Virus record (IMG/VR): IMGVR_UViG_3300037264_003921
Span: 61,264 to 125,263 of that record
Origin: a virus
Reading direction: 5' to 3' (one strand)
Length of the DNA: 64,000 bases
This document shows positions 6,007 to 45,500 of this stretch, in pieces. A model generated the notes under the pieces. The model did not search any database, was not told where the DNA came from, and worked only from the letters and a program-made list of their open reading frames with translations. A program made the translations under genes and the position numbers. Positions within the stretch are counted from its first letter, which is position 1. Each line of letters starts with the position of its first letter.

Positions 6007-7554
6007 CTATTTTTGCAACCATCTCACATAACGAAGCTTTTCTTTCCCAAGCACCTTATGCATCCCATATTTAATAGCATATTGATTTTCATCTAATTTA
6101 AGCCTAGCTGCATGATCCCACACAGTCTTCTTATGATACCAAGCGTTGTTAGCATCAACATACCAATAGTCAGGCTTTACAAACCCATCAAACTTCCATC
6201 CTGCAGCCCTATAGATTGTCCCTTCATGAGCATAAGTCGTATCGGCAAATGTATAGATCACCTTAACCAATGGCTTGTTACCTTTAATAAATCGTATAGC
6301 CTTTCCCAACAACATAGAAGCTAAATTCTTTTTTTGATATTGTGGATGTATCACAAATCTAGTCAGCTCTAATGCATGTTTAGAAAGTACATTAAGGCGT
6401 TTAGCACTTTGCTCTCTTGTAGGATGAGAGAAAACGGCAGATGCAATAATTTTATTATTCAGCTTAGCAACATATCTAACTGAACCAAATCTGCCAATAT
6501 TAGCCATATAATGGTACTTAGCAAACAAACTTCTTAATTCATCTGTAACATCGGCGCATTCAAATATGATATCACTAAAGTTGAAATCAATGATTTCATA
6601 TGGTTTATTAAGCCCAAGCTTTTCGCGAATAATATTTTCTACAAGTTGTCTACTACGGAACTCATAATCCCAAATTGCTAAAAGATCATAATCTTCACCA
6701 AAATAAGTTTTAAGGAATGTTGCTTTTGCATTATCATTAGCTTGTTTGTTCTTTGTATAATGCCAATAGCCTTGGCATTCAATCATCAAATTTTTCTGCA
6801 TCGACCCATGTTTCGGTATCTTGCAGTCGAATATATAGCCAGTAAAACGGCTATTCGTAGTAACAATTGGACCAACAGTGGTTTGAGCACCCTCAGCAAA
6901 GTATGGCACTTTAAGATCATCTAGTATTGAATATAAAGTTGTTTGTAGTGAAGACACTTTATTAGTATGCCACGAAGATAATCTAGCTTTATCCAGCACA
7001 TTGATCATTTTGTTTCTATATTCAGGCGACTGCCAAAGCTCCTTTGAGCGCTTAGAAGCAGCAGCGTAATATTTAGACTCAGATCTAAGCTCATGCTGTC
7101 GTTTGGCATAATCCTTATCAGCCCAAGCTTTTTTGCTGGTGTTACTAATATTCGTTTTGCCTTTATCAGAGCGCCGCCAGTGTAATCTTCGTTCACGCTC
7201 ACTAGCAGAACAATTTTCCCAACTACGTCGCTGGCTATATGCTATTTTACGCTTTATATTATTATTATGGACTTTTGCTGCATAATCAGGATCATCATGC
7301 AAATTAGCAAATTTCTTGCAATATGTCGGGTCCTTATATATTGGATTTGCACGCGACTCAGCTGCAAGTATTGGTTTCAAGCATTTATTGCATACCCATT
7401 GACCAGGCCTACGACGCTTCCTACGCCGATAATTCCCAACAGTTGTGCTTAATACAGCATAGCAAACAGCACATTTTAGTGTCAAATATGCAGCACTATC
7501 CAAAGATGCTGGCTGTTCAATAACCTGCTGATCTACAATGCCTTTAGATTTCAC
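6007..7554 (-). CDS. fusion: Zn finger + NUMOD3-like repeats + Vsr-like endonuclease + Mom-like GNAT-fold DNA-modification domain
   Basis: CxxC..CxxC, SK..W repeats, FD...IECQGYWH, then KYHY, LELTRF, N.AS..L, TFADT...HEGTIYRAAGW. Confidence 0.75.
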   Translation of the reverse strand: MKSKGIVDQQVIEQPASLDSAAYLTLKCAVCYAVLSTTVGNYRRRKRRRPGQWVCNKCLKPILAAESRANPIYKDPTYCKKFANLHDDPDYAAKVHNNNIKRKIAYSQRRSWENCSASERERRLHWRRSDKGKTNISNTSKKAWADKDYAKRQHELRSESKYYAAASKRSKELWQSPEYRNKMINVLDKARLSSWHTNKVSSLQTTLYSILDDLKVPYFAEGAQTTVGPIVTTNSRFTGYIFDCKIPKHGSMQKNLMIECQGYWHYTKNKQANDNAKATFLKTYFGEDYDLLAIWDYEFRSRQLVENIIREKLGLNKPYEIIDFNFSDIIFECADVTDELRSLFAKYHYMANIGRFGSVRYVAKLNNKIIASAVFSHPTREQSAKRLNVLSKHALELTRFVIHPQYQKKNLASMLLGKAIRFIKGNKPLVKVIYTFADTTYAHEGTIYRAAGWKFDGFVKPDYWYVDANNAWYHKKTVWDHAARLKLDENQYAIKYGMHKVLGKEKLRYVRWLQK

Positions 7555-11857: not shown

Positions 11858-13321
11858 ATGTATTTTATACTTATGGACCTTAGTAATTATAAAACAAACG
11901 ATATAATAGACATACAATGTAATAAATGCAATAAACCATATTCTCGTAAAAAACGTAGTCTAATTAAAGCCATCAAAAAGCATAGAACATTTTTATGTGC
12001 CTCATGTATAATGTACATGCAATCTGATAAATTAAGTTACAGAATTAAACTATTAAATGCTGATCCTGAATGGCACCGCAAAGTATCAGATGGCGTACAT
12101 CGTGCTCACATTGATGGAAAATTTAAAAATAAGTCGGCTATAGTCAAGGATAGATGGAAAACTAATCCAAAATCATTCAATATATCACAATCACCAGAAC
12201 GTTCAGAACATATATCATCTTCATTGAAAAAACATTATAAAGTTAAAGCCAACCGCGATAGAACCTCAACAATAAGCAAAAAATTATGGAAAGATCCAGC
12301 ATATCGAGTTAGACGCGCCATATCTCTAGCAAAATCATGTTCTACCAATGAATACAAATTAAAATTGTCCAATGCCAGTAAAAAGATGTGGAGTGATCCA
12401 AATTACAGAAGGAAAATTCAACAATCAGCCAGCCAAAATACAACAAGCATTTTAGAGGATTTAGCTTTTAATTTAATAAAACAACTAGACCCATCATCTG
12501 AGCAATGGTTTAAACATGGTGGATGGACATTCGATATATATTCGCCAATGATGAATACATTAATAGAAATTAATGGAGACTATTTTCACTCAAAGCCTGA
12601 GACATTAAATAGAGATAAAATCAAAAAGGACTATTTTAATAAAAACTTAGCCAATAAATTTAACCTTGAATATATTAATGAATACGAATTTTATGCTATT
12701 GGCAAACTGAAAGATCGTATTAATAAAATATTCAAAATCACAAATTCGCCATTGCTTGACTTTGAACTGTCAAATGTTGATGTAAAGATGTGTACTGACA
12801 TCAGTAGTAAGACATTTTTAAGTAAATACCATTACTTATCAAAATATCGATACGGTGTCCATATTGGTGCATTTCTTAATAGCGAATTAATTGCCGTAGC
12901 TGTCTTCTCGCCAATAACACGCCAAGAAACAGCTAATCGATTAAAATTATCGTCAAATGAAATCATGGAATTATCTCGTCTATGCATCCATCCACAACGA
13001 CATAAACTCAATTTTGCTAGTTGGTTTATTGCACATGCAACAAAATTATTAAAATCAACAAAAGAATTAAAGGCTTTAATCACCTTTGCCGACACAACAC
13101 TAGGACATGATGGCACAATTTACAAAGCTGCAAATTGGCAGTATGATGGCGACACAAAGCCAACTTACTGGTACATTGATAATAATGGTCATTATTACCA
13201 TAAAAAAAGCATATGGGACCAAGCATCACGTTTAAAAATGACAGAAAATGCGTATGCAGAAAAATTTAGGCTAATTAAAATAAATGGCAAAAAATTACTA
13301 CGCTTCATTAAAAAATTATAA
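11858..13321 (+). CDS. second Zn finger/NUMOD3-like/Vsr-like endonuclease + Mom-like fusion
   Basis: FDIY...IEINGDYFH; KYHYL, MELSRL, NFASW, TFADTTLGHDGTIYKAANW; C-terminus aligns with 6007..7554. Confidence 0.75.
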   Translation: MYFILMDLSNYKTNDIIDIQCNKCNKPYSRKKRSLIKAIKKHRTFLCASCIMYMQSDKLSYRIKLLNADPEWHRKVSDGVHRAHIDGKFKNKSAIVKDRWKTNPKSFNISQSPERSEHISSSLKKHYKVKANRDRTSTISKKLWKDPAYRVRRAISLAKSCSTNEYKLKLSNASKKMWSDPNYRRKIQQSASQNTTSILEDLAFNLIKQLDPSSEQWFKHGGWTFDIYSPMMNTLIEINGDYFHSKPETLNRDKIKKDYFNKNLANKFNLEYINEYEFYAIGKLKDRINKIFKITNSPLLDFELSNVDVKMCTDISSKTFLSKYHYLSKYRYGVHIGAFLNSELIAVAVFSPITRQETANRLKLSSNEIMELSRLCIHPQRHKLNFASWFIAHATKLLKSTKELKALITFADTTLGHDGTIYKAANWQYDGDTKPTYWYIDNNGHYYHKKSIWDQASRLKMTENAYAEKFRLIKINGKKLLRFIKKL

Positions 13322-17133: not shown

Positions 17134-17520
17134 TTATACTGATCTCAACTCGTCGTGTAGATCATCAGTGAGAGACCCAACCTTCTTGAGTAAGAAGATG
17201 TCCCTGCCGATACGCTTCGGCATCGCCAAATCGGCGATACCAACAACTGCCTGCGCAGCTGTCACTACATCACGTAATTCACGAACTATTGGTAACCCAA
17301 CTCTGTTATTGTCAACAGATGTCGTTACGATGTCATCCGATGCATCACGGGTTTCCGTAACCAGATCCTCATGACCTGGAACCGACATGACTGCTCCACG
17401 CATGCCAGGGAATCCCAGCAATGGAAGAATCGCCTCATGACGTAGATCCTGACGATACGCACGTACGGTGTATTCCACCGAAATCAGTGTGTTCGCTGGT
17501 TGACTTGCCATTAATATCAC
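17134..17520 (-). CDS. hypothetical protein, own transcription unit; probable start 17511
   Basis: AGGAGG RBS before ATG 17511, upstream hairpin agagcca/tggctct, downstream terminator. Confidence 0.7.
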   Translation of the reverse strand: MILMASQPANTLISVEYTVRAYRQDLRHEAILPLLGFPGMRGAVMSVPGHEDLVTETRDASDDIVTTSVDNNRVGLPIVRELRDVVTAAQAVVGIADLAMPKRIGRDIFLLKKVGSLTDDLHDELRSV

Positions 17521-17590
17521 CTCCTAAACGGCTAAGAGCCACAATGGCTCTGTCCTACTGTAAATTTGACTAAATATTATTAAAATACCG

Positions 17591-17980
17591 TTAAGGTTTA
17601 GATGCGCGTTCTCTTATATGAACAGTTTCAATAGATTTAATATTGTGTACCGTCATACCATCACCAATTAAGGAATCACATTCTATAATAATGGCGATCT
17701 CAGGATGCTTTAAAGATTCAAACAATTTCTTAGCATCATCAAATAACTCTATGTCAGCAATTATTTCATCATTAAATAATCTTATATCATTCACTTTATG
17801 TGTAATGATTCCATCAACTGAATTAAAAGTCATTCTATCAAAGATGCCACCAAATACCTGCCCACCACTCAATCTACGCCTAAGATCCTCATCCTTTAAT
17901 GCAGATTCAATCGTTGCTTTCGGATATAAATTACCACGGCTTGTTGGAAAGTCTACATATATTCCAGAGCCAATTATCAT
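17591..17980 (-). CDS. degenerate prohead protease-like protein (T4 gp21 family)
   Basis: D.P...G..YP, VFG, THKV..I, IADIEL; lacks GELDH and SSRG catalytic motifs. Confidence 0.5.
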   Translation of the reverse strand: MIIGSGIYVDFPTSRGNLYPKATIESALKDEDLRRRLSGGQVFGGIFDRMTFNSVDGIITHKVNDIRLFNDEIIADIELFDDAKKLFESLKHPEIAIIIECDSLIGDGMTVHNIKSIETVHIRERASKP

Positions 17981-18014
17981 CTAATCTCTCGTATTATATT
18001 CGTCTATGGCAATA

Positions 18015-19163
18015 TTAGTCAACAAATATATAGTCATTATGATTTGGACCTGTCCCAATCATTACAACTGGTATACCTGCGGTCTCTTCCATCTTATCAA
18101 TAAATTTTCTAACCTTAATTGGCAGTTTATTAAACTGCGTTCTGCCGCCATGCATCTGATACGCAGACCAGTCAATATATTGTGGAAAATTTAATATCTG
18201 TTTAGTAGCCCCGCAGAATGAAGCGGATTCTTTAAGCAATTGCCATGAGAATGTAAACACACGTCTAATCTTCTTAGTAACTGTGGTACGTTCTTTTTCT
18301 GCCAACACTGATATCTCTGATTCAGGCATACCAGCTTCCCTGCCAATCTGATCCCATGTTAATTCATGTTGATCAGACATACAATCACCAGAGTATCCAG
18401 TTTGTTTCCCATCTCTATAATTATTACCAACACGAATAGGGAATGTTCTGACGTTTAGATACACGTCACCAACCATATTTGGTAATATGCCAAGATCAGA
18501 ATATGCTTGTTGTGGTGTGCAGTCTCTGAACGTACAATATGGATAGTGTGTGCCATGATTGACAGATAAAGCAAATCCTTGTGATACTTCATGCATAATT
18601 GAGTGCCCATCGCTTAACGTTCTGCGCACAGTATCAACAAATTGCATAGGCGTCAAAGTACTCATAACGTCGCTAGCTAACGTTGTCTCCGGTCTGCGCA
18701 TTGATTTCTCTGAAAATGCAGCTCCTGAGCCAGACATTGTTGAAGAAACTCTTTCTGTTGATTGAGATCCATTAGGAGATTCAATATCAATATGCCGCTG
18801 GCTCATAATAACAGCGCGTTGATGGATTTTGACAAGTTTATCATTTATTTTATAGCCAGTTTGTTCAAGTTCCTTATTAAATTGTTCAATCATAAATCCA
18901 GATCCTGGACCAACAAATAAATTCAAATTGCTAAATCTGTCTGCTTTAGTCTTATGAAGAATCGCTGAAGTTGGAACTACTTTTGCAACAAATTTGACAT
19001 TACCATCTAATCCATCAATGATGGCAGTATGTCCAGCATTTGCATAATTACATGTTGAAACATTATTAATATTATATATATCAACAAGCCGCGTTGATGC
19101 AGCTCCTTTTGCAGAGCTACCCCAGGCTGAGTCAACAATACAATTAAGTTTACCCTTTTGCAT
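18015..19163 (-). CDS. purZ: PurZ-like N6-succino-2-amino-dAMP synthase (adenylosuccinate synthetase family)
   Basis: DSAWGSSAKG (Ser where PurA has catalytic Asp), NAGHT, SQGFALS..YPYCTxRDCTP, RTFPIRVG, DQ.ELTW.Q.G, TTVTKKIRRVFTFS, LNFPQY. Confidence 0.82.
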   Translation of the reverse strand: MQKGKLNCIVDSAWGSSAKGAASTRLVDIYNINNVSTCNYANAGHTAIIDGLDGNVKFVAKVVPTSAILHKTKADRFSNLNLFVGPGSGFMIEQFNKELEQTGYKINDKLVKIHQRAVIMSQRHIDIESPNGSQSTERVSSTMSGSGAAFSEKSMRRPETTLASDVMSTLTPMQFVDTVRRTLSDGHSIMHEVSQGFALSVNHGTHYPYCTFRDCTPQQAYSDLGILPNMVGDVYLNVRTFPIRVGNNYRDGKQTGYSGDCMSDQHELTWDQIGREAGMPESEISVLAEKERTTVTKKIRRVFTFSWQLLKESASFCGATKQILNFPQYIDWSAYQMHGGRTQFNKLPIKVRKFIDKMEETAGIPVVMIGTGPNHNDYIFVD

Positions 19164-19249
19164 AATCCCTCCTGCCTACTGTATGAAATGCTTTACCATA
19201 TTTAGCGAGTGTTTCATTAATATCTACATTCACTCATTGTGTACAGTAA

Positions 19250-19594
19250 TTATAACTTGGATGCATGATCAATTGACATACGGAATGGCCAACACCTCCA
19301 ACAGCGTGTGCATCGAACGGCCTTCCTGCCGTCGCGGGTAAACCGGTGTGAACAGGGGCTTGATCCGTCCGGGATGATATAGCCCTTGGCGTCCAAATGC
19401 ACTGGCCATAACTCTTCGACCCATTCCTTCGCCTTACAACCCATCCATTGGCATTCACGACGATAGCCGCCGCCGACAAATTCCTCGATGGCATACCACT
19501 GACTCCATGCATGGTGAATAGTGCCATTGGTGCATCGCTTAAGACGCTTTTTCTTGTTCACCTTACGCATGCCCATGAGATATTCTCTTATCAC
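19250..19594 (-). CDS. Cys/His/Trp-rich hypothetical protein, GC-rich islet
   Basis: 114 aa with HAW, RRECQWMGC, CSHRF, CTRC; GC above flanks. Confidence 0.55.
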   Translation of the reverse strand: MIREYLMGMRKVNKKKRLKRCTNGTIHHAWSQWYAIEEFVGGGYRRECQWMGCKAKEWVEELWPVHLDAKGYIIPDGSSPCSHRFTRDGRKAVRCTRCWRCWPFRMSIDHASKL

Positions 19595-19597
19595 AAT

Positions 19598-20341
19598 TCA
19601 TAGACATTTAATGTATTTGGCCTGCCAGCCATTTTTAGACGTCGCCAAAGCAACATATTTGTCAACTAATGATTCTGGAACGTTATCCTTAATCCATTTT
19701 CTCTCGATCCATTTGAATCCAGCTTTTTTCAAAAACTCTTTTTGCAAATTAAAATCGGCATCGTCAAAATTAGGCTTGCCACTAAACCAGGCTTCAACCT
19801 TACAACGTGGCTCATTCATAATCTTCATAGCATGTTCTAAATTGTGCTTCGCCGCTAACTCACAACATGTTAATGCATCCCATAATGCTCTATGTCTCCT
19901 ACCTGAATCTACGCCATAATCAACAGCAAGGTGTTGTAGTCTTGTTGAATTAACATTACCAACAATCTTTTCATGTGGTAAATCATTTTTAGTGCATATC
20001 CATGGCAACGATAAAAACTCTGGCCACCTCTTTGTTATTAATCCTTTATCATAATCTTTATTATGTGCAACAATAACCACTGGTTTATAATGCTCTACTA
20101 ATTTCCATGGATTAAATTCACAACTATAACCATTATTAGATACGTCACGTTTAATTTTGTGTATAACTTCCGCTTCATTTGACCATTTTGTTGTTTTAAG
20201 AATATCAGAATGCATTGCTACAACCTGACTGTGGGTCGTATCATATACGACCATGCCGATCTCTACTATTTCATCAACATCAATGTTGAGACCAGTGCTC
20301 TCTACGTCAACAGATAAAATAATCATTAACCACAAAGCCAA
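19598..20341 (-). CDS. DEDDh 3'-5' exonuclease (DnaQ/epsilon-like); probable start 20326
   Basis: VDVESTG, VAHN..YD, HRALWD. Confidence 0.88.
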   Translation of the reverse strand: MALWLMIILSVDVESTGLNIDVDEIVEIGMVVYDTTHSQVVAMHSDILKTTKWSNEAEVIHKIKRDVSNNGYSCEFNPWKLVEHYKPVVIVAHNKDYDKGLITKRWPEFLSLPWICTKNDLPHEKIVGNVNSTRLQHLAVDYGVDSGRRHRALWDALTCCELAAKHNLEHAMKIMNEPRCKVEAWFSGKPNFDDADFNLQKEFLKKAGFKWIERKWIKDNVPESLVDKYVALATSKNGWQAKYIKCL

Positions 20342-20351
20342 TTATATCGTT

Positions 20352-20783
20352 TTAATTCCATGGAATTTTCTCCACCCAATGTTGTGGGACCCATAATAAT
20401 GACCCATCATTAAACTCGACACGATAATGCTTGTGGTCTCGTTTAGTTACTCTAGCTGGTTCCATATATTTTACATGTTCTTTATTAATTACTATAATCC
20501 ATGTACCCTCATTGAGTTCTGGGATTTGTGTTTTAAAAACTGGTATTCTATTGACTATCGCCAATTCACTATTTGACAGTCTGGCCCAAAACAAATTTGT
20601 GCATTTTATGCATATGATCGGTACATAGCCAACCTTCTCCCATGAAGAAGATACAGCTTTATTTTGCACATTACAAAATGGACAATTGAAATCGTCTGTT
20701 ATAGACTCATTTGACATCTGGACCCAACGTGTCGACGGCTTTTTCTTTGGCTGGCTCTTGCGTTTTTTGCGTTTCTTGCTCAT
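20352..20783 (-). CDS. Zn-ribbon + SH3-like hypothetical protein
   Basis: CPFC..CIKC; C-terminal YRVEFNDG..LWVP. Confidence 0.6.
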   Translation of the reverse strand: MSKKRKKRKSQPKKKPSTRWVQMSNESITDDFNCPFCNVQNKAVSSSWEKVGYVPIICIKCTNLFWARLSNSELAIVNRIPVFKTQIPELNEGTWIIVINKEHVKYMEPARVTKRDHKHYRVEFNDGSLLWVPQHWVEKIPWN

Positions 20784-21426
20784 TATAAAACCTAATTATA
20801 TTACTAGCTTGGTTTAGATTAACATCAAATCGCATATTTCTATCAGATTTAAATGCTTCAATTGTCTCATATGTCACATTACATGATATCTTTATCGGAG
20901 TAACGATCTTATTACGAACAACAGCAATCGCTTTCTTATGATCCTCCAATCCAACGCCATTCTTCAATGTATATGGATCTAATCTAACCCAATTACATGG
21001 ATATTTCACAATGGCATCAATATGCTGTTCAGATATACCACGGCCATAAGACCCAACTATCCATCTAATTTCAGCAACTGGGTTCACAGATTTTAAAAAT
21101 TCAGAAATTAATCTAACTTCATTGTCAATCTCTTTCCCAGTATGGCCATTTGAATACATTATATCGAATCCATCCGCAGCCAACGCATCCTCAGAAAGAT
21201 CACGCAATTTTTGCATTGCAAAATTCTTGCCATCAGGATAGTCAATAACAGCAATAATTTTATACTTACCACGTTTTGAAACCCTATCAGCGATAAATGG
21301 GGCAACTAAGCTAGGCACAGTAACTATTGCAGGGCAACTGTGTTTAAATACAAATGCGCCAACACGTACTGGATTTACCATTTTATCTAAAGCATTTAAT
21401 TCTAATCGTGTAGTAATTTGCAACAT
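20707..21426 (-). CDS. DeoC (deoxyribose-phosphate aldolase)-like TIM-barrel protein
   Basis: AVIDYPDG, K...ADGFDIM, PIKIS; Schiff-base Lys position appears to be Arg (WVRLD). Confidence 0.55.
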   Translation of the reverse strand: MLQITTRLELNALDKMVNPVRVGAFVFKHSCPAIVTVPSLVAPFIADRVSKRGKYKIIAVIDYPDGKNFAMQKLRDLSEDALAADGFDIMYSNGHTGKEIDNEVRLISEFLKSVNPVAEIRWIVGSYGRGISEQHIDAIVKYPCNWVRLDPYTLKNGVGLEDHKKAIAVVRNKIVTPIKISCNVTYETIEAFKSDRNMRFDVNLNQASNIIRFYNEQETQKTQEPAKEKAVDTLGPDVK

Positions 21427-22001
21427 TTCTTTTCCTTTTCATTTGTAAAACCATCATAACATACTGAAAACCATTTCAATGGGTCCATCTTAATACTGCC
21501 ATTATCCAATTTATCAACATGCCCAATTAATTGATCCCATGTTCTGAAAAACACATGATCCATATCTTGTGGCGTTGAAAACCTCTGTAATACCCATGTT
21601 GATGCAATCCCATCTGGCATACAAAATAAGACTGGTTTATCTATATCAGCTGCTAGATATATCTCTTCGAACGTGCCTGCGGTATACTTAATTGGCATCC
21701 AACATATAATCCAATCAGCAGACGACACCATTTTCAAACAAACTTGACGTAATTCTTTATTTGCATCGAATACATCATTTATTGTTATCCCAACAGGCTC
21801 ACCATTTAGACTTTTACGATATAATTTTGGGTCTACTTTTGAAATATCAGACAACCAACTAGGTTTAACTAATGGATCATATACTTTGACATTATATTTT
21901 AATAAACTACTAGTTATTTGGGTACGCCAATCTTTTGCATGGTCATCATGTTCAACTGGACCTGCTAAATATACTCGCGTGCCACCCAATAAATTCCCCA
22001 T
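21402..22001 (-). CDS. nucleoside 2-deoxyribosyltransferase-like / dNMP N-glycosidase family protein
   Basis: VYLAGP, WR, YDP, ADWII, AGTFEE, KPV. Confidence 0.75.
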   Translation of the reverse strand: MGNLLGGTRVYLAGPVEHDDHAKDWRTQITSSLLKYNVKVYDPLVKPSWLSDISKVDPKLYRKSLNGEPVGITINDVFDANKELRQVCLKMVSSADWIICWMPIKYTAGTFEEIYLAADIDKPVLFCMPDGIASTWVLQRFSTPQDMDHVFFRTWDQLIGHVDKLDNGSIKMDPLKWFSVCYDGFTNEKEKKCCKLLHD

Positions 22002-22030
22002 ACAGCTATTTACGCAGTATAGATACTTAG

Positions 22031-22201
22031 TTATGGCATTTCGTTCTTAGTACTTTCTCCAGGTTTATTCTTCTTTTTAAATCCCTGACCAAGCATAAAC
22101 TTTGGGTACTTTACTTTCTGTTCGTGATGTTGAGTGCCGCCGCCATGTGCCCCTTTGCTACTGTGCTTTGATTTACCAAAATTCACCTTTTTTTCTGCCA
22201 T
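22031..22201 (-). CDS. small basic protein (56 aa, below ORF-track cutoff)
   Basis: Hand translation MAEKKVNFGKSKHSSKG...; GAGGT RBS. Confidence 0.55.
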   Translation of the reverse strand: MAEKKVNFGKSKHSSKGAHGGGTQHHEQKVKYPKFMLGQGFKKKNKPGESTKNEMP

Positions 22202-22209
22202 AATTACCT

Positions 22210-23181
22210 CTATTCTATAGTTTTTAATTCATTCAATATTATATCTACAGCTGTCTTCTGATCAAGTTTGCCAAAATACTCAGCAAACTTATATTTATTA
22301 TATGATGAACAAAAAAATATCTTCTGTCGTTCTTCAGGTGTCAGTACATTTACAGCTGACATATAACTTTCTGCCTCACTATCAAATCGTTTTAGACGTA
22401 CATCATTAGCTACATCTGGGTTTTGTCCATAAAAATGTAACTTACCACTCACAGAACACATATCGACACCAAAGATGTAAATTTTATCATATTGCATCCA
22501 AACAGCTGTTTGAATATTTGCATATGTTGATGATCTACCAACATGATACCCTCTTACTAGATCTCTAGAAAACCCCTTTCCAGATAAACTCTTTATCAAA
22601 ACTTGGTTCTTATGTGGTGCTCGCACAGATGACGCATTTAATGTAGTACCATTATATTTTTCCCATATTTGTTTATTCCTTGTATATTGACTCTGATCGC
22701 AAAATGCCCAATAGCGTGATGGCCATATTCTGCTATCTGGTCTATTAATACACATTATGTCTATTTTCTTGTTATCTTTCAACTTTTCCAATGGCGCTTC
22801 AAGAACAGATGGTCCACATGCTACAATCACTAATATTCTACCACGCCCAATGCCACGCAATCCTTCAATCGCTGCTCTAAATTGCGCTACTCTATTTGAA
22901 TTGAGCCTATTTACACTACTGCTTATTAGACGTGGTTTATGTTCTCTTATTGGGAAGTTTACTCTAACATCTCTCTTTTGCTTAGGCTGCTGTTTGATTA
23001 TTGGTTTCGCAGCTTTAACCAACACTACCTGTGGCACTCTTGGTTGTATAATTTTTTGTTCAATATTTTGAGTCCTATTCGGTTTATTAACTTTAATGTG
23101 GACTCTCTGAATTGGTAGTTTATTCAATGATCTATAATTATGTGCCACAAAATATCTTTGGCATAAATTACAACCAACCAA
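22210..23181 (-). CDS. DUF115/Maf-like glycosyltransferase-fold protein; probable start GTG 23148
   Basis: IVACGPSV, IMCINR, WAFCD, SST..NIQ.A.WM.YDKIYIFGVDM, HFYG. Confidence 0.65.
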   Translation of the reverse strand: MVGCNLCQRYFVAHNYRSLNKLPIQRVHIKVNKPNRTQNIEQKIIQPRVPQVVLVKAAKPIIKQQPKQKRDVRVNFPIREHKPRLISSSVNRLNSNRVAQFRAAIEGLRGIGRGRILVIVACGPSVLEAPLEKLKDNKKIDIMCINRPDSRIWPSRYWAFCDQSQYTRNKQIWEKYNGTTLNASSVRAPHKNQVLIKSLSGKGFSRDLVRGYHVGRSSTYANIQTAVWMQYDKIYIFGVDMCSVSGKLHFYGQNPDVANDVRLKRFDSEAESYMSAVNVLTPEERQKIFFCSSYNKYKFAEYFGKLDQKTAVDIILNELKTIE

Positions 23182-23216
23182 TCACCGTAAGTTGTATAAA
23201 ATAATAGTATTAATAA

Positions 23217-23606
23217 TTAATTTTCATTAACCTCTACAGTATGGTCGCCAACAAGCCTCTTCTTAAGATTAGCTAAAACAACTTTTCTACGTGATTCTTT
23301 ATTCATTTTAGAATATAAATGTCTAAATACCGTAGTAGTCAAAAGATTAAAAACTGGGGCACGACCAGGAGTAAATTTCAACCTCCCATCACTTATTTTG
23401 GCAATTGTAAGAACAAATGCCTCATGGGCAAACTCGTGGTGTTCATCCTCATCGTGTGGATGAAAATGTATAGCAACACCATAGCATATTTTATATATGC
23501 CATCAAGCAAATGTTTCCAAGATTCTTCATTATGGTTATCAAGCCATTTTGTCCAATGCTCTTCAAGCAATTTAGAGTCTACATAGTACTTTTTAATACT
23601 TGCCAT
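23217..23606 (-). CDS. late-transcription sigma factor-like protein (T4 gp55-like)
   Basis: KYYVDSK.L...W, IYKIC.GVA, F.P..APVFNLLTT. Confidence 0.6.
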   Translation of the reverse strand: MASIKKYYVDSKLLEEHWTKWLDNHNEESWKHLLDGIYKICYGVAIHFHPHDEDEHHEFAHEAFVLTIAKISDGRLKFTPGRAPVFNLLTTTVFRHLYSKMNKESRRKVVLANLKKRLVGDHTVEVNEN

Positions 23607-29171: not shown

Positions 29172-29765
29172 TTATTTATACTTGCCTTCTCTAAACCATT
29201 TTGTTGCAGCCCACTTTTCGCCGCTTTTAACTGGTAGCGATGCGTGCATCATATTTCTATCTATAATCCCATTAATCGAATTTCTGAATAGTATTGCTAG
29301 TCCAGTTTGTGGTGAAATTTTTATGCCAAGTTTTGAAAACAATAATTCGCCACCATCGTCAACATTATTCAGATACATACTTACAGTAAATGTACGCTGA
29401 CCTCCCCTGCTTAATGATTTTAAAGAACTTTTAAACATAGGATCAAACCAATCATAATGTTGTTTATATTCCTCACCAGATCCATATTTTAATATTTGGA
29501 TGCCCTCACTATTATCGATTGGCATTTTGATCATAGATGATATCCTATCCTCTATTGACGATATAATATCATCAAATCCATTATTAAAAAATGCAGCACT
29601 GCTACTTCTATAATCAGTTATTATACCATCCCCAGTTGCATAATCAACAACTGATGATTTTACCAATTTCGTGCGTGCTAGATTTATTAAATGGGTGCAT
29701 TCTTCATTGCTTAAGAATTTTTTTATAGTCCATATATTAGCATATTGTGTTACACGTTCTATCAT
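29172..29765 (-). CDS. 2OG-Fe(II) oxygenase, prolyl 4-hydroxylase-like
   Basis: FLSNEEC, E.IQILKY, HYD, T...YLN.V..GGE..F, HASLPV..GEKW. Confidence 0.9.
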   Translation of the reverse strand: MIERVTQYANIWTIKKFLSNEECTHLINLARTKLVKSSVVDYATGDGIITDYRSSSAAFFNNGFDDIISSIEDRISSMIKMPIDNSEGIQILKYGSGEEYKQHYDWFDPMFKSSLKSLSRGGQRTFTVSMYLNNVDDGGELLFSKLGIKISPQTGLAILFRNSINGIIDRNMMHASLPVKSGEKWAATKWFREGKYK

Positions 29766-32497
29766 GCTTCAGCACACTGATCTATACTCTTATCTATTGC
29801 AAAATGAACAAATAATATATTCCTAATCCCACAATCATTATCTTCACATGGATTAAAACCAGTAACAATCTGATCAGCTGCCGAGATCATAAACGTATCG
29901 AAATTAAGCTCTGTATTAAATGGTAACACAATATCATAATCACCAGGCGTACCATCATCTGTTACAGACCCAATAACTGGGATCCCAGTCTCATCATCTT
30001 CTGGTATGACAAAACTCCCATTACCCTGTTTTAATGCTACAGTGTACAATGCTACATTTGATAGGCTTCCACTTATTGATGCAAGTGAAAACACTCCATT
30101 CCTATCACCACTCGGTTTTCCTAATGGCAAATTTCTTGGAATAACTCCTGATATTATTGGCCCATTTGAAAACATCTTCTGTTGATTATCAAACACCATT
30201 AAACAACCAACATCACCGCTAGAGCTACCAATAATTCCAAAATTCATCCACATGAATCTATCATTAGACACAGTCGGTTTAAATAAGTTGATGGCATCTA
30301 CAGTCCCAGATGATATAGCAGAACTTAGATCAGCTGCATATGTATTAACATCAAATCCCGTCGACACTTCAACTTTAATTGTTTCACCTGACATAAACCA
30401 TGATACAATCTCATCATCGTTAATCATAATGCTTTGAGCAGAAAAATCAGATGCCGTTACAGCGCCACCAACATTTGAAAATATGATCGTATCATCAATT
30501 GGGTCAAATATTATTCTTAATGTCTGTGACGTAGATGATTTTACACCAGTCAATATTATTACAGGCAGCCCATCCCATACGCCAGATGCTAATGTAACAA
30601 AGCTATCAGTTATATTAACATCATCAAACGTTGTTGAAAATGATGACATTGACAATGATGGCCAATTCACTGTTAATTTAGCAAGCTTCAATTCACCAGA
30701 ATCAGAAAAGGCATAATAAATAGAATTTCCATCAGATAATGGTTTTGTTTCAAGCAATTCACCATTTGCAAATGGGTTAGTTAGTTCTAATTCATTATAT
30801 CCAGAAACCGTATCATTTAATTTCTGTAATTTGACATGCAGATCCACGCCAGACCCAGACCCTGCGATTCCTATTATTAGTCCACTTTCATGATATACTG
30901 CATTCTCAATAAACTCAGATTCATTTGATGATGTATAATTACATGAATAAATAGCATCCCTACCATCAATAGATGTGTCTGTTGCTGGTGGTGCAACCTG
31001 TGCAATATTTAAACATTTACCAAAAACATACGGAAAATCAACACCAGCGTGTCTATTGATAGTTTTCATCATTACATTAAGAACACCAATTTTATTCTCT
31101 GATTGTTTTATCTGACAGTTAATTGGTGGGAAACAATCACCAAATATATCAATATTATCGACGCTCGCGTCCTCTAATCTAACTAATAATTCTGGCATTG
31201 TTATTGTCAGTTTATCAGATGAACTCAGTGTTGCACCATGCGATGTTGGTATGAATAGCCTAATAAAATTAGTGCCTTGTAATGCAACCAAAAACACAGA
31301 GCCATCCCAATCATTTAAAACTGTAGATTCTACATCAGCGATTATACCTTTAGTAATGTCAAATAATATTGATCTCTGACTATCAAACGGATTTGATGAA
31401 TCTGCAATAAAATCACCGTCACCAACTATATCCGTCATTAATAAATCAAACATTGTTCCATTTGAATCACTACTAGGAAATTCCCCACTACCATGGAATT
31501 CTATCTTAAATTCTGGTATTACATTACATTGTCCATCTTGAGTCAATAATTTTTTATCAGATGAGTATACTCTTATATGTCTAATTGTCGGCAATGTAGG
31601 TGTTCCATAATCATCAATTATAGCGGTGCCAATTGTTATATCATTTCTCTGTAGCTCTACAATTCCACCATTAACCATTTCAGATGAATTATCATTATCA
31701 TAAAATATCTGTTGCCTGTTTTTCACAAAAAACAATTCATTGCTGCTTATAATCCGCGATCCAATAATGATTTTATATTCAGTATTATTACCTAAGAATA
31801 AATTTTCATCATTAAAATAGACACTAACATGCGATACGGATGAATCATCATAATTTTTTGTAATTATAGCTTTATTGCCTATATTCCATACATCGACTGA
31901 TTCAGATAATTCACTAACACTTGCAATTGACACACCATTTCTATCATATGCAATTGTAATATTACCATATAAGTTTGTTGTATTATAGTTATCCGATACA
32001 AGAGATTTTGGATTTAAATCACTAAATAGGTCTATTTCAATCGCACCATCGCCTTGTGATGGACCCATATTATTAATGCCAATAGCCCATAAACTTATAG
32101 TATTATAAGAAGAATCATCGGAAGATTTCAATGACCCTTGATATAATACGCGATATCTATCATTATTATCTTTCGTACCGATAAACAGCAACCCATTATT
32201 AAATCTATCGCTGCGAACTAACTTACCGCTATCAGCAATTGATTGTGTCACGGTACATGATCCAGATTGTGCAAAATATGTCCCATTACCAAATGGTCCA
32301 TCTATTGTAACATTCTGCGTCTGAAATTCTAAATCTTTTATTGTTATTAAGATATTACCATCTAATTGATCAATCGCCGATGGCAACACAGACCCAACTC
32401 TATTATCATGAACATCAATCCGTATACGATTAGTACGATGTGCAAGAATGTCAGCTTCTTTCACTAAAAATCTAGACATAAATTCACCATTTATCAT
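29762..32497 (-). CDS. large acidic beta-rich virion structural protein
   Basis: 911 aa, D/S/N-rich, coupled to fibre-like gene. Confidence 0.6.
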   Translation of the reverse strand: MINGEFMSRFLVKEADILAHRTNRIRIDVHDNRVGSVLPSAIDQLDGNILITIKDLEFQTQNVTIDGPFGNGTYFAQSGSCTVTQSIADSGKLVRSDRFNNGLLFIGTKDNNDRYRVLYQGSLKSSDDSSYNTISLWAIGINNMGPSQGDGAIEIDLFSDLNPKSLVSDNYNTTNLYGNITIAYDRNGVSIASVSELSESVDVWNIGNKAIITKNYDDSSVSHVSVYFNDENLFLGNNTEYKIIIGSRIISSNELFFVKNRQQIFYDNDNSSEMVNGGIVELQRNDITIGTAIIDDYGTPTLPTIRHIRVYSSDKKLLTQDGQCNVIPEFKIEFHGSGEFPSSDSNGTMFDLLMTDIVGDGDFIADSSNPFDSQRSILFDITKGIIADVESTVLNDWDGSVFLVALQGTNFIRLFIPTSHGATLSSSDKLTITMPELLVRLEDASVDNIDIFGDCFPPINCQIKQSENKIGVLNVMMKTINRHAGVDFPYVFGKCLNIAQVAPPATDTSIDGRDAIYSCNYTSSNESEFIENAVYHESGLIIGIAGSGSGVDLHVKLQKLNDTVSGYNELELTNPFANGELLETKPLSDGNSIYYAFSDSGELKLAKLTVNWPSLSMSSFSTTFDDVNITDSFVTLASGVWDGLPVIILTGVKSSTSQTLRIIFDPIDDTIIFSNVGGAVTASDFSAQSIMINDDEIVSWFMSGETIKVEVSTGFDVNTYAADLSSAISSGTVDAINLFKPTVSNDRFMWMNFGIIGSSSGDVGCLMVFDNQQKMFSNGPIISGVIPRNLPLGKPSGDRNGVFSLASISGSLSNVALYTVALKQGNGSFVIPEDDETGIPVIGSVTDDGTPGDYDIVLPFNTELNFDTFMISAADQIVTGFNPCEDNDCGIRNILFVHFAIDKSIDQCAEA

Positions 32498-41197: not shown

Positions 41198-41800
41198 ATG
41201 AGAACACGCCTAGACGATACAGTTTTAGACACTGGACAGTGTTACAATAATGGTGATGGTTTAACTATTGGCTGTTTTTACGCTTTAGACTTCGTGAAAC
41301 ATTTCGGCAGGGTACAAACAGGGTCTAACATTTCGATTGCCATGCATAGCTATTTAGCAGCAATGATTGGTAGTGCGTGGTACACATATACAAAAAATGA
41401 TAAAAATTGGTCAATCAGCCAGCATGAATTTACTACGCTATGTCTTTTCCACGATGTTGCTGAAGCTCTTGTTGGGGATGTTTGGCGACCAGCAAAGACA
41501 AAAGAGGTAAGAGATCAAGAAGAAAAAGTTCACAATGCTATAATGAAGTTTATTACTATAGATACGAAAATTGCAAATGAATTTAAACATGAACAGGAAA
41601 AGATTGATAATTGTGCTCAATTTGTTGAATTAATCAGATATCTTGAAATAAGCCCAGGGCACAAGGTCTTTACTGAAATAGGCACACAGATGGCTAAAAC
41701 GATGGTTACAGAAGGCATGGAGGATTTTTGTTTGATAAATTTAGGGCTGTCTGAACATGAAATTGCAGTGGCACTACTAACAAAAGCAAAGGAGAAATAG
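41198..41800 (+). CDS. HD-domain deoxynucleotide phosphohydrolase (YfbR/DatZ-like)
   Basis: SIAMHSY, LFHDVAEA.VGD..RP.K, K.D. Confidence 0.78.
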   Translation: MRTRLDDTVLDTGQCYNNGDGLTIGCFYALDFVKHFGRVQTGSNISIAMHSYLAAMIGSAWYTYTKNDKNWSISQHEFTTLCLFHDVAEALVGDVWRPAKTKEVRDQEEKVHNAIMKFITIDTKIANEFKHEQEKIDNCAQFVELIRYLEISPGHKVFTEIGTQMAKTMVTEGMEDFCLINLGLSEHEIAVALLTKAKEK

Positions 41801-45356: not shown

Positions 45357-45500
45357 ATGTCTAAAATTGTTAATATATCAATAGAGAAAGGTAAGTGCCG
45401 GGAAGTTATATCAGATGGATATTCAATCCAAAATGTGAGTGTAATCGGTGTTGGGATTAGTCACATGATTGAATACCAGACTGACTTCCCGGATGTTTGA
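45357..45500 (+). CDS. DnaE fragment 3 (47 aa): IntC-like N-terminus + EYQTDFPDV (not in ORF track)
   Basis: AAGGA RBS; MSKIVNISIEKG...GISHMIEYQTDFPDV-stop; a +1 shift gives PDVDIDLLP. Confidence 0.7.
   Translation: MSKIVNISIEKGKCREVISDGYSIQNVSVIGVGISHMIEYQTDFPDV

What the first reader, a model, noticed from the sequence alone, without database searches (positions are those of the whole stretch)
18015..22001. purZ operon with dNMP N-glycosidase-like, DeoC-like and DEDDh genes: possible new route to remove dA
Seen: co-oriented, tightly packed NDT-like > DeoC-like > Zn-ribbon > DEDDh > (insert) > purZ. Known: NDT-superfamily hydrolases (DNPH1/Rcl, MilB) split NMP/dNMPs into base plus sugar-5-phosphate, DeoC cleaves deoxyribose-5-phosphate, and Z phages must deplete dATP, normally with DatZ. 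Inference: the exonuclease releases dNMPs, the glycosidase destroys dAMP or swaps bases, and the aldolase-like protein disposes of the sugar. I do not know this set as part of described Z clusters. Caveats: the DeoC Schiff-base Lys appears to be Arg, and the DEDDh may simply be the DnaE proofreader.
Basis: partly seen in the sequence, partly recalled or inferred. Interest (0 to 1): 0.72.

Follow-up and report, generated by a model that had tools for sequence, protein, structure and literature searches.

The report
Giant-phage PurZ module with glycosidase-aldolase-like pair
A giant uncultured phage keeps the gene that starts synthesis of the adenine substitute 2-aminoadenine beside a nucleotide base-splitting enzyme and an aldolase-shaped protein that lacks the aldolase's key lysine, which is a partly published, partly new way of editing the DNA precursor pool.

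Summary
On the minus strand of 18015-22001 lie an NDT-superfamily gene, a DERA(DeoC)-fold gene, a Zn-ribbon gene, a DEDDh exonuclease, a GC-rich insert and a PurZ carrying Ser at the PurA Asp13 position.

- **NDT part, now in print.** NDT-family DmtZ splits dAMP in PurZ0 phages (PMC12884076). The window's NDT-like protein shares 7 of 9 mapped DmtZ positions but no significant sequence similarity.
- **DERA-like part, not found in print.** Its fold matches DERA at Z 22. The Schiff-base lysine is Arg in 145 of 151 members, so ordinary aldol cleavage is unlikely.
- **Neighbourhood survey.** In 43 loci of one giant-phage clade (350-400 kb), 41 of 42 evaluable loci have the DERA-like gene. Of those 41, 38 have an NDT gene (two lineages) upstream and 39 have PurZ beside it.
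- **DEDDh.** It is an accessory at this site (8 of 42 loci), and 3 of 5 complete relatives with DnaE lack any such gene.
- **DatZ.** A DatZ-type HD gene lies 20 kb away, so this phage is not DatZ-less.

This scan found the same module before on at least 8 other genomes. No chemistry was measured, and Z-DNA is unproven here.

The parts
21402..22001 (-). NDT-superfamily protein (199 aa), a DmtZ-like candidate purine dNMP N-glycosidase or dR5P transferase
   Evidence: Pfam PF15891 and PF05014 are both just over cut-off. The fold is NDT/DNPH1/MilB. Y11, T107, G109, E113 and W136 are invariant in 27 of 27 homologues and E17 is in 26 of 27.
   Evidence: VIA Z 22.1 to DERA. No Pfam hit in 0 of 14 members. 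209 representatives at E<=1e-3. R148 145/151, K179 139/151, D/E88 151/151, K73 150/151. The motifs line up with E. coli DeoC D102, K137, K167, K201 and RFG.
20352..20783 (-). Zn-ribbon (CxxC...CxxC) plus C-terminal beta-rich domain protein (143 aa); function unknown; accessory
   Evidence: Cys at 34, 37, 58 and 61. Only weak Pfam Elf1-type ribbon, 19.1 bits, below cut-off. Homologue present in about 18 of 42 related loci.
19598..20341 (-). DnaQ/PolC-type DEDDh 3'-5' exonuclease (247 aa, perhaps starting at the ATG 15 nt in); accessory at this site
   Evidence: RNase_T 37.2 bits and phrog_192 'DNA polymerase exonuclease subunit' 1.3e-22. PDB 2p1j PolC-type exonuclease E 9e-8. At this site in 8 of 42 loci.
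19164..19597 (.). GC-rich insert between DEDDh and purZ, holding a 114-aa Cys/Trp/His-rich ORF (19250-19594, minus strand)
   Evidence: GC 47.5% (core 52.5%) against 36-38% for the flanking genes. The same gap is 46 nt in L002. No Rfam match. No Pfam hit over cut-off.
18015..19163 (-). PurZ (2-aminoadenylosuccinate synthetase type), 382 aa
   Evidence: PF00709 87.6 bits and phrog_1211 3.1e-50. Ser at PurA Asp13. 35% identity to phiVC8 PurZ, 28% to Ghobes PurZ0, 23% to E. coli PurA.
22210..23181 (-). MptE-like protein (323 aa), constant 5' neighbour of the module in the clade; role unknown
   Evidence: PF01973 23.8 bits, below cut-off. Atlas feature hits to phage MptE-like clusters at 0.94. It anchors 43 related loci.
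41198..41800 (+). HD_3/YfbR-like phosphohydrolase (200 aa), a DatZ-type candidate dATPase, 20 kb from the module
   Evidence: HD_3 38 bits (cut-off 22.5) and YfbR-like 32.9 bits (cut-off 25.9). BLASTP to phiVC8 DatZ: 22% identity, E 0.002. No homologue in 5 relatives searched.

Best explanation
This is a nucleotide-pool operon of a giant (about 370 kb class) DnaE-using myophage that very probably makes 2-aminoadenine (Z) nucleotides.

Shown: gene identities, folds, conserved residues and neighbourhood.

Inferred mechanism:
1. PurZ converts dGMP to the succinyl intermediate of dZMP.
2. The NDT-like enzyme acts like DmtZ. It takes dAMP, forms a 5-phosphodeoxyribosyl-Glu113 intermediate, and releases adenine. 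It then gives the sugar phosphate to water or to the Z base, so dA nucleotides are drained.
3. The DERA-fold protein is translationally coupled to the NDT gene and is always its downstream neighbour. It binds or processes the deoxyribose (5-phosphate) product by chemistry that does not use the classical beta6 Schiff-base lysine. This keeps the sugar from being recycled into dA.
4. The Zn-ribbon protein and the DEDDh exonuclease are lineage-specific additions. The DEDDh is most likely a replication proofreader.
5. The HD_3/YfbR-like gene 20 kb away may supply DatZ-type dATP hydrolysis in this phage.
For: - PurZ signature Ser in the window and in all 10 related viral PurZ-like genes examined.
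- NDT fold.
- In a mafft --add alignment of Ghobes DmtZ (gp53, verified by Y6, D12, P57, N77 and E103): Y6=Y11, V11=V16, T97=T107, G99=G109, E103=E113 and W124=W136 at 26-27 of 27, and D12=E17 at 26 E plus 1 D. In the DmtZ model D12 reads the adenine 6-amino group, W124 closes the site, and uncharged residues make room for the 5'-phosphate (PMC12884076, section 22 read).
- DERA fold at Z 22.1. The counterparts of D16, D102 and K201 are kept as E9 (140/151), D/E88 (151/151) and K179 (139/151).
- Survey anchored on the MptE-like gene, 43 loci: DERA-like gene in 41 of 42 evaluable. Of those 41, an NDT-family gene lies upstream in 38 (16 long type, 22 short type) and PurZ in the locus in 39. The two exceptions have PurZ elsewhere in complete genomes.
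- 25-nt overlap with an SD-like AAGGA.
- E. coli DeoC is the coupling enzyme that consumes DmtZ's product in vitro (PMC12884076, methods passage).
Against: - No activity or DNA composition was measured.
- Similarity to DmtZ is not significant (hhalign E 0.05, probability 1%). tblastn of the NDT-like protein finds 1 record of 50,697 in GenBank phages, and not Ghobes or Wayne.
- The third triad residue is unclear: C88 by mafft, N81 by hhalign. DmtZ Pro57 is not kept.
- The DERA-like protein has Arg at the K167 and K137 positions, and D201 sits where DERA has a phosphate-loop Gly. It cannot be assumed to cleave or even bind dR5P.
- Three of 41 loci have the DERA-like gene and PurZ without a detected NDT gene.
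- All loci belong to one syntenic clade, so co-occurrence is partly inheritance.
- 12 of 23 loci holding NDT-like relatives lack PurZ and, at E<=1e-3, all but one weak hit (2.3e-4) lack a DERA-like gene.
Confidence: 0.5

Rival explanations
1. The DERA-like barrel works with PurZ rather than with the NDT enzyme. For example, it could be a phage-encoded replacement for the host lyase step (succinyl-dZMP to dZMP plus fumarate) or a supplier of dGMP. In that case its Arg residues would bind carboxylates or phosphates.
For: The DERA-like gene is the most constant PurZ companion: 39 of 41 loci, and in G005 it moved away from the MptE-like gene together with PurZ. Three loci have the DERA-like gene and PurZ but no NDT. 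Two Lys-to-Arg changes sit in the barrel centre, among conserved E9, D62, D/E88 and E103.
Against: An NDT gene is directly upstream in 38 of 41 loci, with overlapping or near-touching reading frames. In two complete genomes PurZ lies about 170-190 kb from the NDT/DERA-like pair, which stays together. Known Z phages use the host PurB (recalled, not checked here). No lyase-like feature was tested.
Confidence: 0.15
2. This is a general deoxynucleotide salvage and pool-balancing cluster of a T4-like giant phage. It sits beside PurZ only because nucleotide-metabolism genes cluster, and the NDT/DERA-like pair has no Z-specific role.
For: Variable neighbours at the same site are ordinary pool enzymes: dCMP deaminase in 4 loci tested and a dCTP-deaminase/dUTPase-fold gene in G001. 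Distant NDT-like relatives occur without PurZ in 12 of 23 loci. All contexts come from one clade.
Against: Every one of the 42 evaluable clade loci or its contig or genome carries PurZ, so no PurZ-less control exists. NDT enzymes were independently linked to Z DNA twice (PMC12884076; bioRxiv 10.1101/2025.10.22.683976, passages read). An acidic residue sits at the DmtZ Asp12 position in 27 of 27.
Confidence: 0.15
3. One reading: the DEDDh exonuclease degrades DNA to dNMPs, the glycosidase splits dAMP, and a true aldolase cleaves dR5P to glyceraldehyde 3-phosphate and acetaldehyde.
For: The genes are co-oriented with no terminator-like site. The fold is DERA. K179, K73 and K56 remain as possible alternative nucleophiles. 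The DEDDh occurs only beside the long-type NDT (8 of 16 such loci, 0 of 22 short-type).
Against: The DEDDh is absent at the site in 34 of 42 loci, and no RNase_T-family gene at all is found in 3 of 5 complete relatives. Its nearest solved relative is a PolC proofreading domain. The Schiff-base Lys is Arg in 145 of 151, and Lys167 cannot be exchanged without loss of function in E. coli DERA (PMC6244999).
Confidence: 0.1
4. The DERA-like protein is a catalytically dead ligand-binding or scaffolding subunit (a pseudoenzyme). It would regulate or stabilise the NDT enzyme or sequester dR5P.
For: The nucleophile is lost while the fold is kept. There is translational coupling to the NDT gene. A conserved C-terminal peptide G-T-L-G-Q-D-V follows a low-complexity linker in the near subfamily and in several distant members.
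Against: A dense set of conserved charged residues across 151 representatives at about 25-50% identity looks like an active site, not a decaying one.
Confidence: 0.1

Closest known systems
DmtZ (with DutZ and PurZ0) of Gordonia phage Ghobes and Arthrobacter phage Wayne (PMC12884076)
   Same: An NDT-superfamily enzyme encoded near a PurZ-type gene. It shares the Tyr, the Pro-Val-acidic motif after it, Thr at Glu-6, the Glu nucleophile and a lid Trp. The proposed role is removal of dAMP.
   Different: - No significant sequence similarity.
- 199 aa against 161 aa.
- Cys88 or Asn81 instead of a clear Asn77; no Pro57.
- The PurZ is nearer to the PurZ group than to PurZ0 by identity (35% against 28%).
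- No dUTPase-family gene in the 125-kb fragment.
- The host phage is a giant DnaE myophage, not a 45-kb actinophage with DpoZ.
- It is paired with a DERA-like gene that the paper does not report.
NDT-M2, nucleoside 2-deoxyribosyltransferase from dZ-enriched metagenomic contigs (bioRxiv 10.1101/2025.10.22.683976)
   Same: An NDT (PF05014) statistically tied to Z-DNA phages, with a preference for dA as donor. UDG and YfbR-like/HD_3 domains are also associated, and all three occur in this window.
   Different: That NDT acts on nucleosides and is reported not to co-localise with the PurZ domain. Here the NDT gene lies 2.2 kb from purZ. Whether the sequences are related could not be checked because the supplements are closed.
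Deoxyribose-5-phosphate aldolase (DERA/DeoC, E. coli b4381; PDB 1jcl, 6d33)
   Same: TIM-barrel fold at Z 21-22 over about 207 residues. Motif-level counterparts of D16, D102, K201 and the RF of the beta8 loop are kept.
   Different: - Lys167 (Schiff base) is Arg148 and Lys137 is Arg121.
- No Pfam PF01791 hit.
- hhalign to E. coli DeoC is not significant.
- The beta8 phosphate loop GASS is replaced (D201 in 70 of 151).
- There are extra invariant residues K73 and E103.
Canonical PurZ-DatZ-MazZ(-DpoZ) clusters (phiVC8, S-2L)
   Same: PurZ with the Asp13-to-Ser change. A YfbR-like/HD_3 protein is present in the same genome.
   Different: - The HD gene is 20 kb away, beside the DnaE genes, rather than next to purZ as in phiVC8.
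- No MazG-family hit in the fragment.
- The replicase is a split DnaE, not a PolA-type DpoZ.

Membership tests
PurZ (2-aminoadenylosuccinate synthetase) | Adenylosuccinate-synthetase family domain | tested here: met
   PF00709 87.6 bits against cut-off 27; phrog_1211 3.1e-50.
PurZ (2-aminoadenylosuccinate synthetase) | Ser in place of PurA catalytic Asp13 (100% of 147 phage PurZ/PurZ0 sequences in PMC12884076) | tested here: met
   GSSAKG aligned to E. coli GDEGKG. The same Ser is in all 10 related viral sequences, in phiVC8, in Ghobes and in the Bacillus phage.
PurZ (2-aminoadenylosuccinate synthetase) | Placement in the PurZ rather than the PurZ0 or PurA clade of a tree | tested here: inconclusive
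   Only pairwise identities are available: 35% to phiVC8 PurZ, 34% to the Bacillus phage PurZ, 28% to Ghobes PurZ0, 23% to E. coli PurA. No tree was built.
PurZ (2-aminoadenylosuccinate synthetase) | dGMP plus Asp condensing activity; Z in virion DNA | not testable with these tools
   Needs an enzyme assay and nucleoside LC-MS.
NDT superfamily (nucleoside deoxyribosyltransferase / DNPH1 / MilB) | Fold | tested here: met
   Foldseek best E 6.9e-6. All VIA top-50 entries are NDT, DNPH1, MilB, BcmB or YtoQ, Z 14.0-11.4.
NDT superfamily (nucleoside deoxyribosyltransferase / DNPH1 / MilB) | Catalytic Glu nucleophile and the Tyr that positions it | tested here: met
   E113 and Y11 are invariant in 27 of 27 and align with DmtZ E103 and Y6.
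NDT superfamily (nucleoside deoxyribosyltransferase / DNPH1 / MilB) | Third triad residue (Asp, or Asn in DmtZ and TbPDT) | tested here: inconclusive
   mafft puts DmtZ N77 on C88 (Cys in 26 of 27). hhalign puts it on N81. D96 is also invariant. No 3D residue list was available.
DmtZ (dAMP hydrolase / dR5P transferase) | Detectable sequence homology to Ghobes or Wayne DmtZ | tested here: not met
   hhalign probability 1.1%, E 0.05. tblastn against 50,697 phage records found 1 hit, an uncultured 595-kb phage.
DmtZ (dAMP hydrolase / dR5P transferase) | Acidic residue six after the Tyr (Asp12, adenine 6-NH2 reader), uncharged 5'-phosphate pocket, lid Trp124 | tested here: met
   E17 (26 E plus 1 D of 27), T107, G109 and W136 (27 of 27). 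The alignment is of low statistical weight.
DmtZ (dAMP hydrolase / dR5P transferase) | Pro57 (water-excluding, transferase-type) | tested here: not met
   It aligns to a variable position (E68 in the window; K in 9, N in 5, E in 4 of 27).
DERA / DeoC class I aldolase | TIM-barrel fold closest to DERA | tested here: met
   Z 22.1, rmsd 2.5, 207 residues aligned. 48 DERA-type entries come before the first other family at Z 16.8.
DERA / DeoC class I aldolase | Schiff-base Lys on beta6 (E. coli Lys167) | tested here: not met
   R148 in 145 of 151 representatives, K in 4. The mapping is by strand order and by motif: ADFIKTS against CNWVRLD. It is not from a residue-level superposition.
DERA / DeoC class I aldolase | Lys201 and Asp102 counterparts | tested here: met
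   K179 in 139 of 151; D/E88 in 151 of 151.
DERA / DeoC class I aldolase | Pfam PF01791 membership | tested here: not met
   0 of 14 members hit PF01791 at E<=10. One Atlas cluster at rank 15 carries it in 47% of its members.
DnaQ-like DEDDh 3'-5' exonuclease | ExoI DxE, ExoII D, ExoIII HxxxxD motifs and the RNase_T domain | tested here: met
   D12, E14, D97, H150 and D155. PF00929 37.2 bits. PolC-type exonuclease 2p1j E 9e-8.
DatZ (HD dATP triphosphohydrolase), for ORF 41198-41800 | YfbR-like / HD_3 domain | tested here: met
   38 and 32.9 bits, both over cut-off.
DatZ (HD dATP triphosphohydrolase), for ORF 41198-41800 | Specificity residues W20/I22 (or Y20 with T/S22) | not tested
   No S-2L DatZ sequence was fetched. 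BLASTP to phiVC8 DatZ starts after that region.

The most novel reading that the evidence does not exclude
The PurZ-associated DERA-like barrels are a new enzyme family. They would have re-tooled the deoxyribose-phosphate aldolase scaffold (Lys167 to Arg, Lys137 to Arg, Lys201 kept) for a non-Schiff-base reaction that is an integral, so far missing, step of Z-nucleotide metabolism in giant phages. Candidate reactions are irreversible disposal or conversion of the deoxyribose 5-phosphate released from dAMP, or the lyase step after PurZ. Either would make these phages independent of DatZ/MazZ-type helpers.
Probability: 0.25. Interest if true: 0.8.

Novelty: new variant of a known kind. Interest (0 to 1): 0.55.

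Why it matters
Z-DNA phages are the clearest natural case of a rewritten genetic alphabet, and the helper enzymes that exclude adenine are still being catalogued. An NDT-type route was published only in 2025-26.

This module shows a whole clade of 350-400 kb phages, 43 contigs here, that pairs PurZ with two different NDT lineages. It always adds an uncharacterised DERA-shaped protein lacking the aldolase lysine. That gives a concrete, expressible candidate for a new step or a new regulator in deoxynucleotide pool editing. It also offers a natural example of a class I aldolase scaffold that has given up its nucleophile.

The module would also extend Z-type metabolism to DnaE-replicated giant phages, which have no DpoZ.

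Tried and rejected
- **Gene context by exact protein.** I used the search for related loci instead.
- **Sequence link of the DERA-like family to DERA.** The profile against PDB sequences gave nothing better than E 1.3. hhalign against E. coli DeoC gave probability 0.15-0.27%. The link rests on fold and motifs only.
- **NDT-like profile against PDB sequences.** No relevant hit.
- **tblastn in GenBank phages.** The DERA-like protein and a distant member (P0100) gave no match.
- **blastn of 17500-23500 against phages.** No match.
- **The search for related loci failures.** The single DERA-like protein confirmed none. A1, A2, A6 and A7 worked.
- **Physical binding of the NDT-like and DERA-like proteins.** Complex prediction gave no answer (score 0.00, mark 0.32). 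This counts neither way.
- **Archaeal host idea.** It was raised by one homologue labelled Nitrososphaerales and by a Volactin-family hit. I dropped it because the genome has a tail sheath, DnaB, DnaE, Mre11/SbcC and phage PHROG hits.
- **DEDDh as obligatory DnaE partner.** Not upheld: DnaE is in 5 of 5 complete relatives but an RNase_T-family gene in only 2 of 5.
- **Insert as a known RNA.** No Rfam hit.
- **Other gaps.** PMC3585086 (designed phosphodeoxyribosyltransferases) is not held, so the role of the Glu-6 residue rests on PMC12884076 section 22 and on recall. Supplements of both Z papers were not seen; they may list giant-phage PurZ contigs or NDT sequences. 'Not in print' for a PurZ-linked aldolase-like gene rests on two checks: the full-text search 'PurZ' plus 'aldolase' (8 papers, 7 listed, none relevant beyond the coupling assay), and the term counts in the two papers.
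- **Limits of the survey.** The loci were not de-replicated. L054/L055, L078/L079 and L080/L082/L083/L084/L088 are near-identical.

Full report
**What is there.** The window is the last 64 kb of a 125-kb IMG/VR virus record that CheckV rates 34% complete. On the minus strand of 18015-22001 six ORFs follow one another.

- **NDT-like protein (21402-22001).** It passes two Pfam NDT models narrowly: PF15891 at 36 bits against a cut-off of 30, and PF05014 at 29.2 against 28.8. A model built on 27 homologues (pLDDT 89.1) finds only NDT-superfamily structures. Foldseek's best E is 6.9e-6. The VIA top 50 are all nucleoside deoxyribosyltransferases, DNPH1/Rcl, MilB, BcmB or YtoQ at Z 14.0-11.4.
- **DeoC-like protein (20707-21426).** It has no Pfam or PHROG hit. 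Its model (pLDDT 88.5) matches deoxyribose-phosphate aldolases at Z 22.1, rmsd 2.5 A over 207 residues. Forty-eight DERA or DERA-derived entries come before the next family at Z 16.8.
- **Zn-ribbon protein (20352-20783).** It has a four-Cys ribbon and a beta-rich C-terminal half.
- **DEDDh exonuclease (19598-20341).** It is an RNase_T-family protein with all five motif residues. It hits PHROG 192, 'DNA polymerase exonuclease subunit'. Its nearest solved relative is a PolC-type proofreading domain.
- **Insert (19164-19597).** These 434 nt are GC-rich (47.5%, core 52.5%, against 36-38% in the genes). The stretch is missing from relatives, where the gap is 46 nt in L002. It has no Rfam match.
- **PurZ (18015-19163).** It is an adenylosuccinate-synthetase homologue (PF00709 87.6 bits, phrog_1211 3e-50). 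It carries Ser where E. coli PurA has the catalytic Asp13. PMC12884076 reports that Ser in 100% of 147 phage PurZ/PurZ0 sequences (passage read).

So the observation, including the Lys-to-Arg caveat, is confirmed.

**The phage.** The fragment also encodes:
- a tail sheath, DnaB and Mre11/SbcC;
- a split DnaE (42669-44078 and 45469-47670);
- a UDG-superfamily protein and a PolA fragment;
- an HD_3/YfbR-like protein at 41198-41800.

HD_3 and YfbR-like are the two Pfam families that define DatZ in bioRxiv 10.1101/2025.10.22.683976 (passage read). BLASTP of this ORF against phiVC8 DatZ gives 22% identity and E 0.002. No homologue of the ORF was found in five relatives. Two of five complete relatives have no HD-domain hit at all. 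No MazG or dUTPase hit was found in the 125-kb fragment. That fragment is only a third of a genome.

**What is known.** Two recent papers bear directly on the finding.
- PMC12884076 (NAR, February 2026; abstract, several passages and section 22 read) shows that DmtZ hydrolyses dAMP to adenine plus deoxyribose 5-phosphate. DmtZ is an NDT-family protein of PurZ0 actinophages. It also transfers the sugar phosphate to the Z base, and it works after a dUTPase-fold dATP/dGTP diphosphatase (DutZ).
- The bioRxiv preprint finds PF05014 and UDG domains enriched on dZ contigs. It also describes a nucleoside-level NDT that prefers dA.

Neither paper mentions a phage aldolase-like gene. The term 'aldolase' occurs once in the NAR paper, for the E. 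coli DeoC coupling enzyme, and not at all in the preprint. A full-text search for PurZ plus aldolase found nothing else relevant.

**Is the NDT-like protein a DmtZ?** I identified Ghobes gp53 as DmtZ because Y6, D12, P57, N77 and E103 all fit. Similarity to the window family is not significant: hhalign E 0.05, and tblastn finds only one uncultured 595-kb phage in GenBank.

Added to the 27-sequence alignment, however, DmtZ lines up as follows:

| DmtZ residue | Window residue | Conservation in family |
|---|---|---|
| Y6 | Y11 | 27/27 |
| V11 | V16 | 26/27 |
| D12 | E17 | 26 E plus 1 D of 27 |
| T97 | T107 | 27/27 |
| G99 | G109 | 27/27 |
| E103 | E113 | 27/27 |
| W124 | W136 | 27/27 |

In the DmtZ model, D12 reads the adenine amino group and W124 closes the site. 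Uncharged residues replace the Asp/Asn that hold a 5'-OH in nucleoside NDTs (section 22).

Two features do not carry over. Pro57 aligns to a variable position. The third triad residue falls on Cys88 (26/27) or on Asn81, depending on the aligner.

I therefore treat the protein as working like DmtZ, but not as a demonstrated member of that family.

**The DERA-like protein.** An exhaustive profile search found 209 cluster representatives at E<=1e-3, of which 191 are at E<=1e-10. In 151 of them aligned together:

| Residue | Count of 151 |
|---|---|
| K73 | 150 |
| D/E88 | 151 |
| E103 | 147 |
| R121 | 145 |
| R148 | 145 (K in 4) |
| E9 | 140 |
| D62 | 140 |
| K179 | 139 |

I mapped these onto E. 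coli DeoC by strand order in the model and by local motifs. The motif pairs are ADEVDVV/ADGFDIM, LLKVIIE/AEIRWIV, ADFIKTS/CNWVRLD, GFKPAGG/PIKISCN and YRFGASS/MRFDVNL. The correspondences are D102 to D88, K137 to R121, K167 to R148 and K201 to K179.

Lys167 forms the Schiff base and cannot be exchanged without loss of function. Lys201 tunes its pKa (PMC6244999, passages read). The family therefore keeps the DERA scaffold and several active-site positions, but it has lost the nucleophile. A dense conserved charged set argues for a working site of different chemistry rather than decay.

A C-terminal peptide G-T-L-G-Q-D-V follows a low-complexity linker. It is conserved in the near subfamily and recurs in several distant members.

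**Neighbourhood survey.** Three anchors were used.

1. *NDT alignment (23 loci).* The 11 near relatives all have the DERA-like gene immediately downstream, and 10 have PurZ in the locus. The 12 distant relatives have no PurZ hit and, apart from one weak hit (2.3e-4), no DERA-like hit.
2. *A distant DERA-like subfamily (6 new loci).* All have PurZ within about 3 kb.
3. *The constant upstream MptE-like gene (43 loci on contigs up to 408 kb).*
   - One locus ends too early to judge, leaving 42.
   - Of those 42, 41 have the DERA-like gene downstream. The exception carries it with PurZ elsewhere on the contig (L005).
   - Of those 41, 39 have PurZ in the locus. The other two are complete genomes with PurZ about 170-190 kb away.
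   - The long NDT type is upstream in 16 loci.
   - In 22 further loci a shorter ORF of 125-221 aa sits there. Three of these were scanned: two pass PF05014 and one falls just under. A fourth, with an N-terminal ribbon, gave no Pfam hit.
   - Three loci have no NDT gene detected.
   - The DEDDh is at the site in 8 of 42 loci and a Zn-ribbon homologue in about 18.
   - Other inserts are dCMP deaminases and, in G001, a dCTP-deaminase/dUTPase-fold gene.
   - The DERA-like ORFs in these loci span all three large subfamilies.

The PurZ genes at this position fall into three lineages only 29-32% identical to one another. All have the Ser.

Caveats apply. The loci were not de-replicated. All belong to one syntenic clade, so there is no PurZ-less control.

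**The DEDDh.** All five complete relatives have a split DnaE. Only two have any RNase_T-family gene, in both cases at this locus. It is therefore neither a universal DnaE partner nor a constant part of the Z module. By family resemblance a proofreading role remains the more likely one, but this is open.

**Mechanism proposed.** PurZ starts dZMP synthesis. The NDT-like enzyme drains dAMP, by hydrolysis or by transfer to Z. The coupled DERA-like barrel handles the deoxyribose phosphate by non-Schiff-base chemistry, or merely binds it. The HD protein may add DatZ-type dATP hydrolysis. Steps after gene identity are inference, and I put 0.5 on this reading.

Rivals are:
- a PurZ-side role for the barrel (0.15);
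- a general salvage cluster (0.15);
- a pseudoenzyme subunit (0.1).

**Novelty.** The NDT-with-PurZ idea is published. Not found in print are the DERA-like partner, its family-wide Lys-to-Arg change, the two NDT lineages at one site, and the setting in DnaE-replicated giant phages.

This scan had already reported the same NDT/DERA-like/PurZ module on at least eight other genomes, with the same overall verdict. I saw those notes only after my own analysis, and they agree with it. This window adds four points:
- a DatZ-type HD gene is present in the same genome;
- the DEDDh is shown to be an accessory;
- the short NDT lineage is identified;
- residue counts are given across 151 representatives.

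Noticed in passing
window 41198-41800 (+): HD_3 (38 bits) / YfbR-like (32.9 bits) phosphohydrolase, the Pfam pair that defines DatZ. It lies just upstream of the split DnaE genes. No homologue was found in five relatives.
   Followed up: partly
window 42669-44078 and 45469-47670 (+): DnaE-type polymerase split into a PHP/N-terminal piece and a finger/HhH piece, with about 1.4 kb of small ORFs between. All five complete relatives also show DnaE in two or three pieces.
   Followed up: partly
window 49297-49992 (+): UDG-superfamily protein (85.4 bits). The bioRxiv dZ study lists the UDG domain among those associated with dZ contigs.
   Followed up: no
window 34826-36112 (-): Strong match to the Pfam Volactin family (5.7e-59), an actin-like protein. 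Homologues occur in L024/L025, L044 and L089.
   Followed up: no
window 6007-7554 (-) and 11858-13321 (+): Two paralogous ORFs combine HNH/homing-endonuclease-like and 'Mom-like DNA modification protein' PHROG hits (phrog_1384, 1e-28 and 5e-33).
   Followed up: no
window 22210-23181 (-): MptE-like protein that is the constant 5' neighbour of the module in 43 related loci. A DAHP-synthase-I-family gene lies at 40014-40799. Possible sugar chemistry unrelated to Z.
   Followed up: partly
L014 14654-16918 (contig of G004): PurZ lies in a 755-aa open frame whose two PurZ halves are separated by about 1.1 kb. This looks like an intein-like insertion.
   Followed up: no
G007 and G008 (complete relatives): Each has two PF00709 genes. 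One is at the DERA-like locus. The second scores higher against the PurA model (5e-34 and 1.5e-48) and may be a true PurA.
   Followed up: no
window 20707-20780 (C-terminus of the DERA-like ORF): Conserved terminal peptide G-T-L-G-x-D-V after a Lys/Glu/Gln-rich linker. It overlaps the 5' end of the Zn-ribbon ORF in another frame. It recurs in distant family members, so it is likely a real peptide motif.
   Followed up: partly
L067, L073, L075, L077, L086, L090: The short NDT-type proteins carry an N-terminal CxxC...CxxC ribbon. In the window a ribbon protein is a separate gene after the DERA-like gene.
   Followed up: no
window 19164-19597: GC-rich insert (up to 56% in a 200-nt window) between DEDDh and purZ, absent from relatives.
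   Followed up: partly
protein P0003 (homologue of the DERA-like protein): NCBI labels it as from a Nitrososphaerales archaeon MAG (contig 169,599 nt). It is probably a giant-phage contig binned with an archaeon.
   Followed up: no
window 29762-32497 and 32494-34833 (-): Two large ORFs (911 and 779 aa) with no Pfam or PHROG hit. The 779-aa one is conserved in L005, L010, L012 and others.
   Followed up: no
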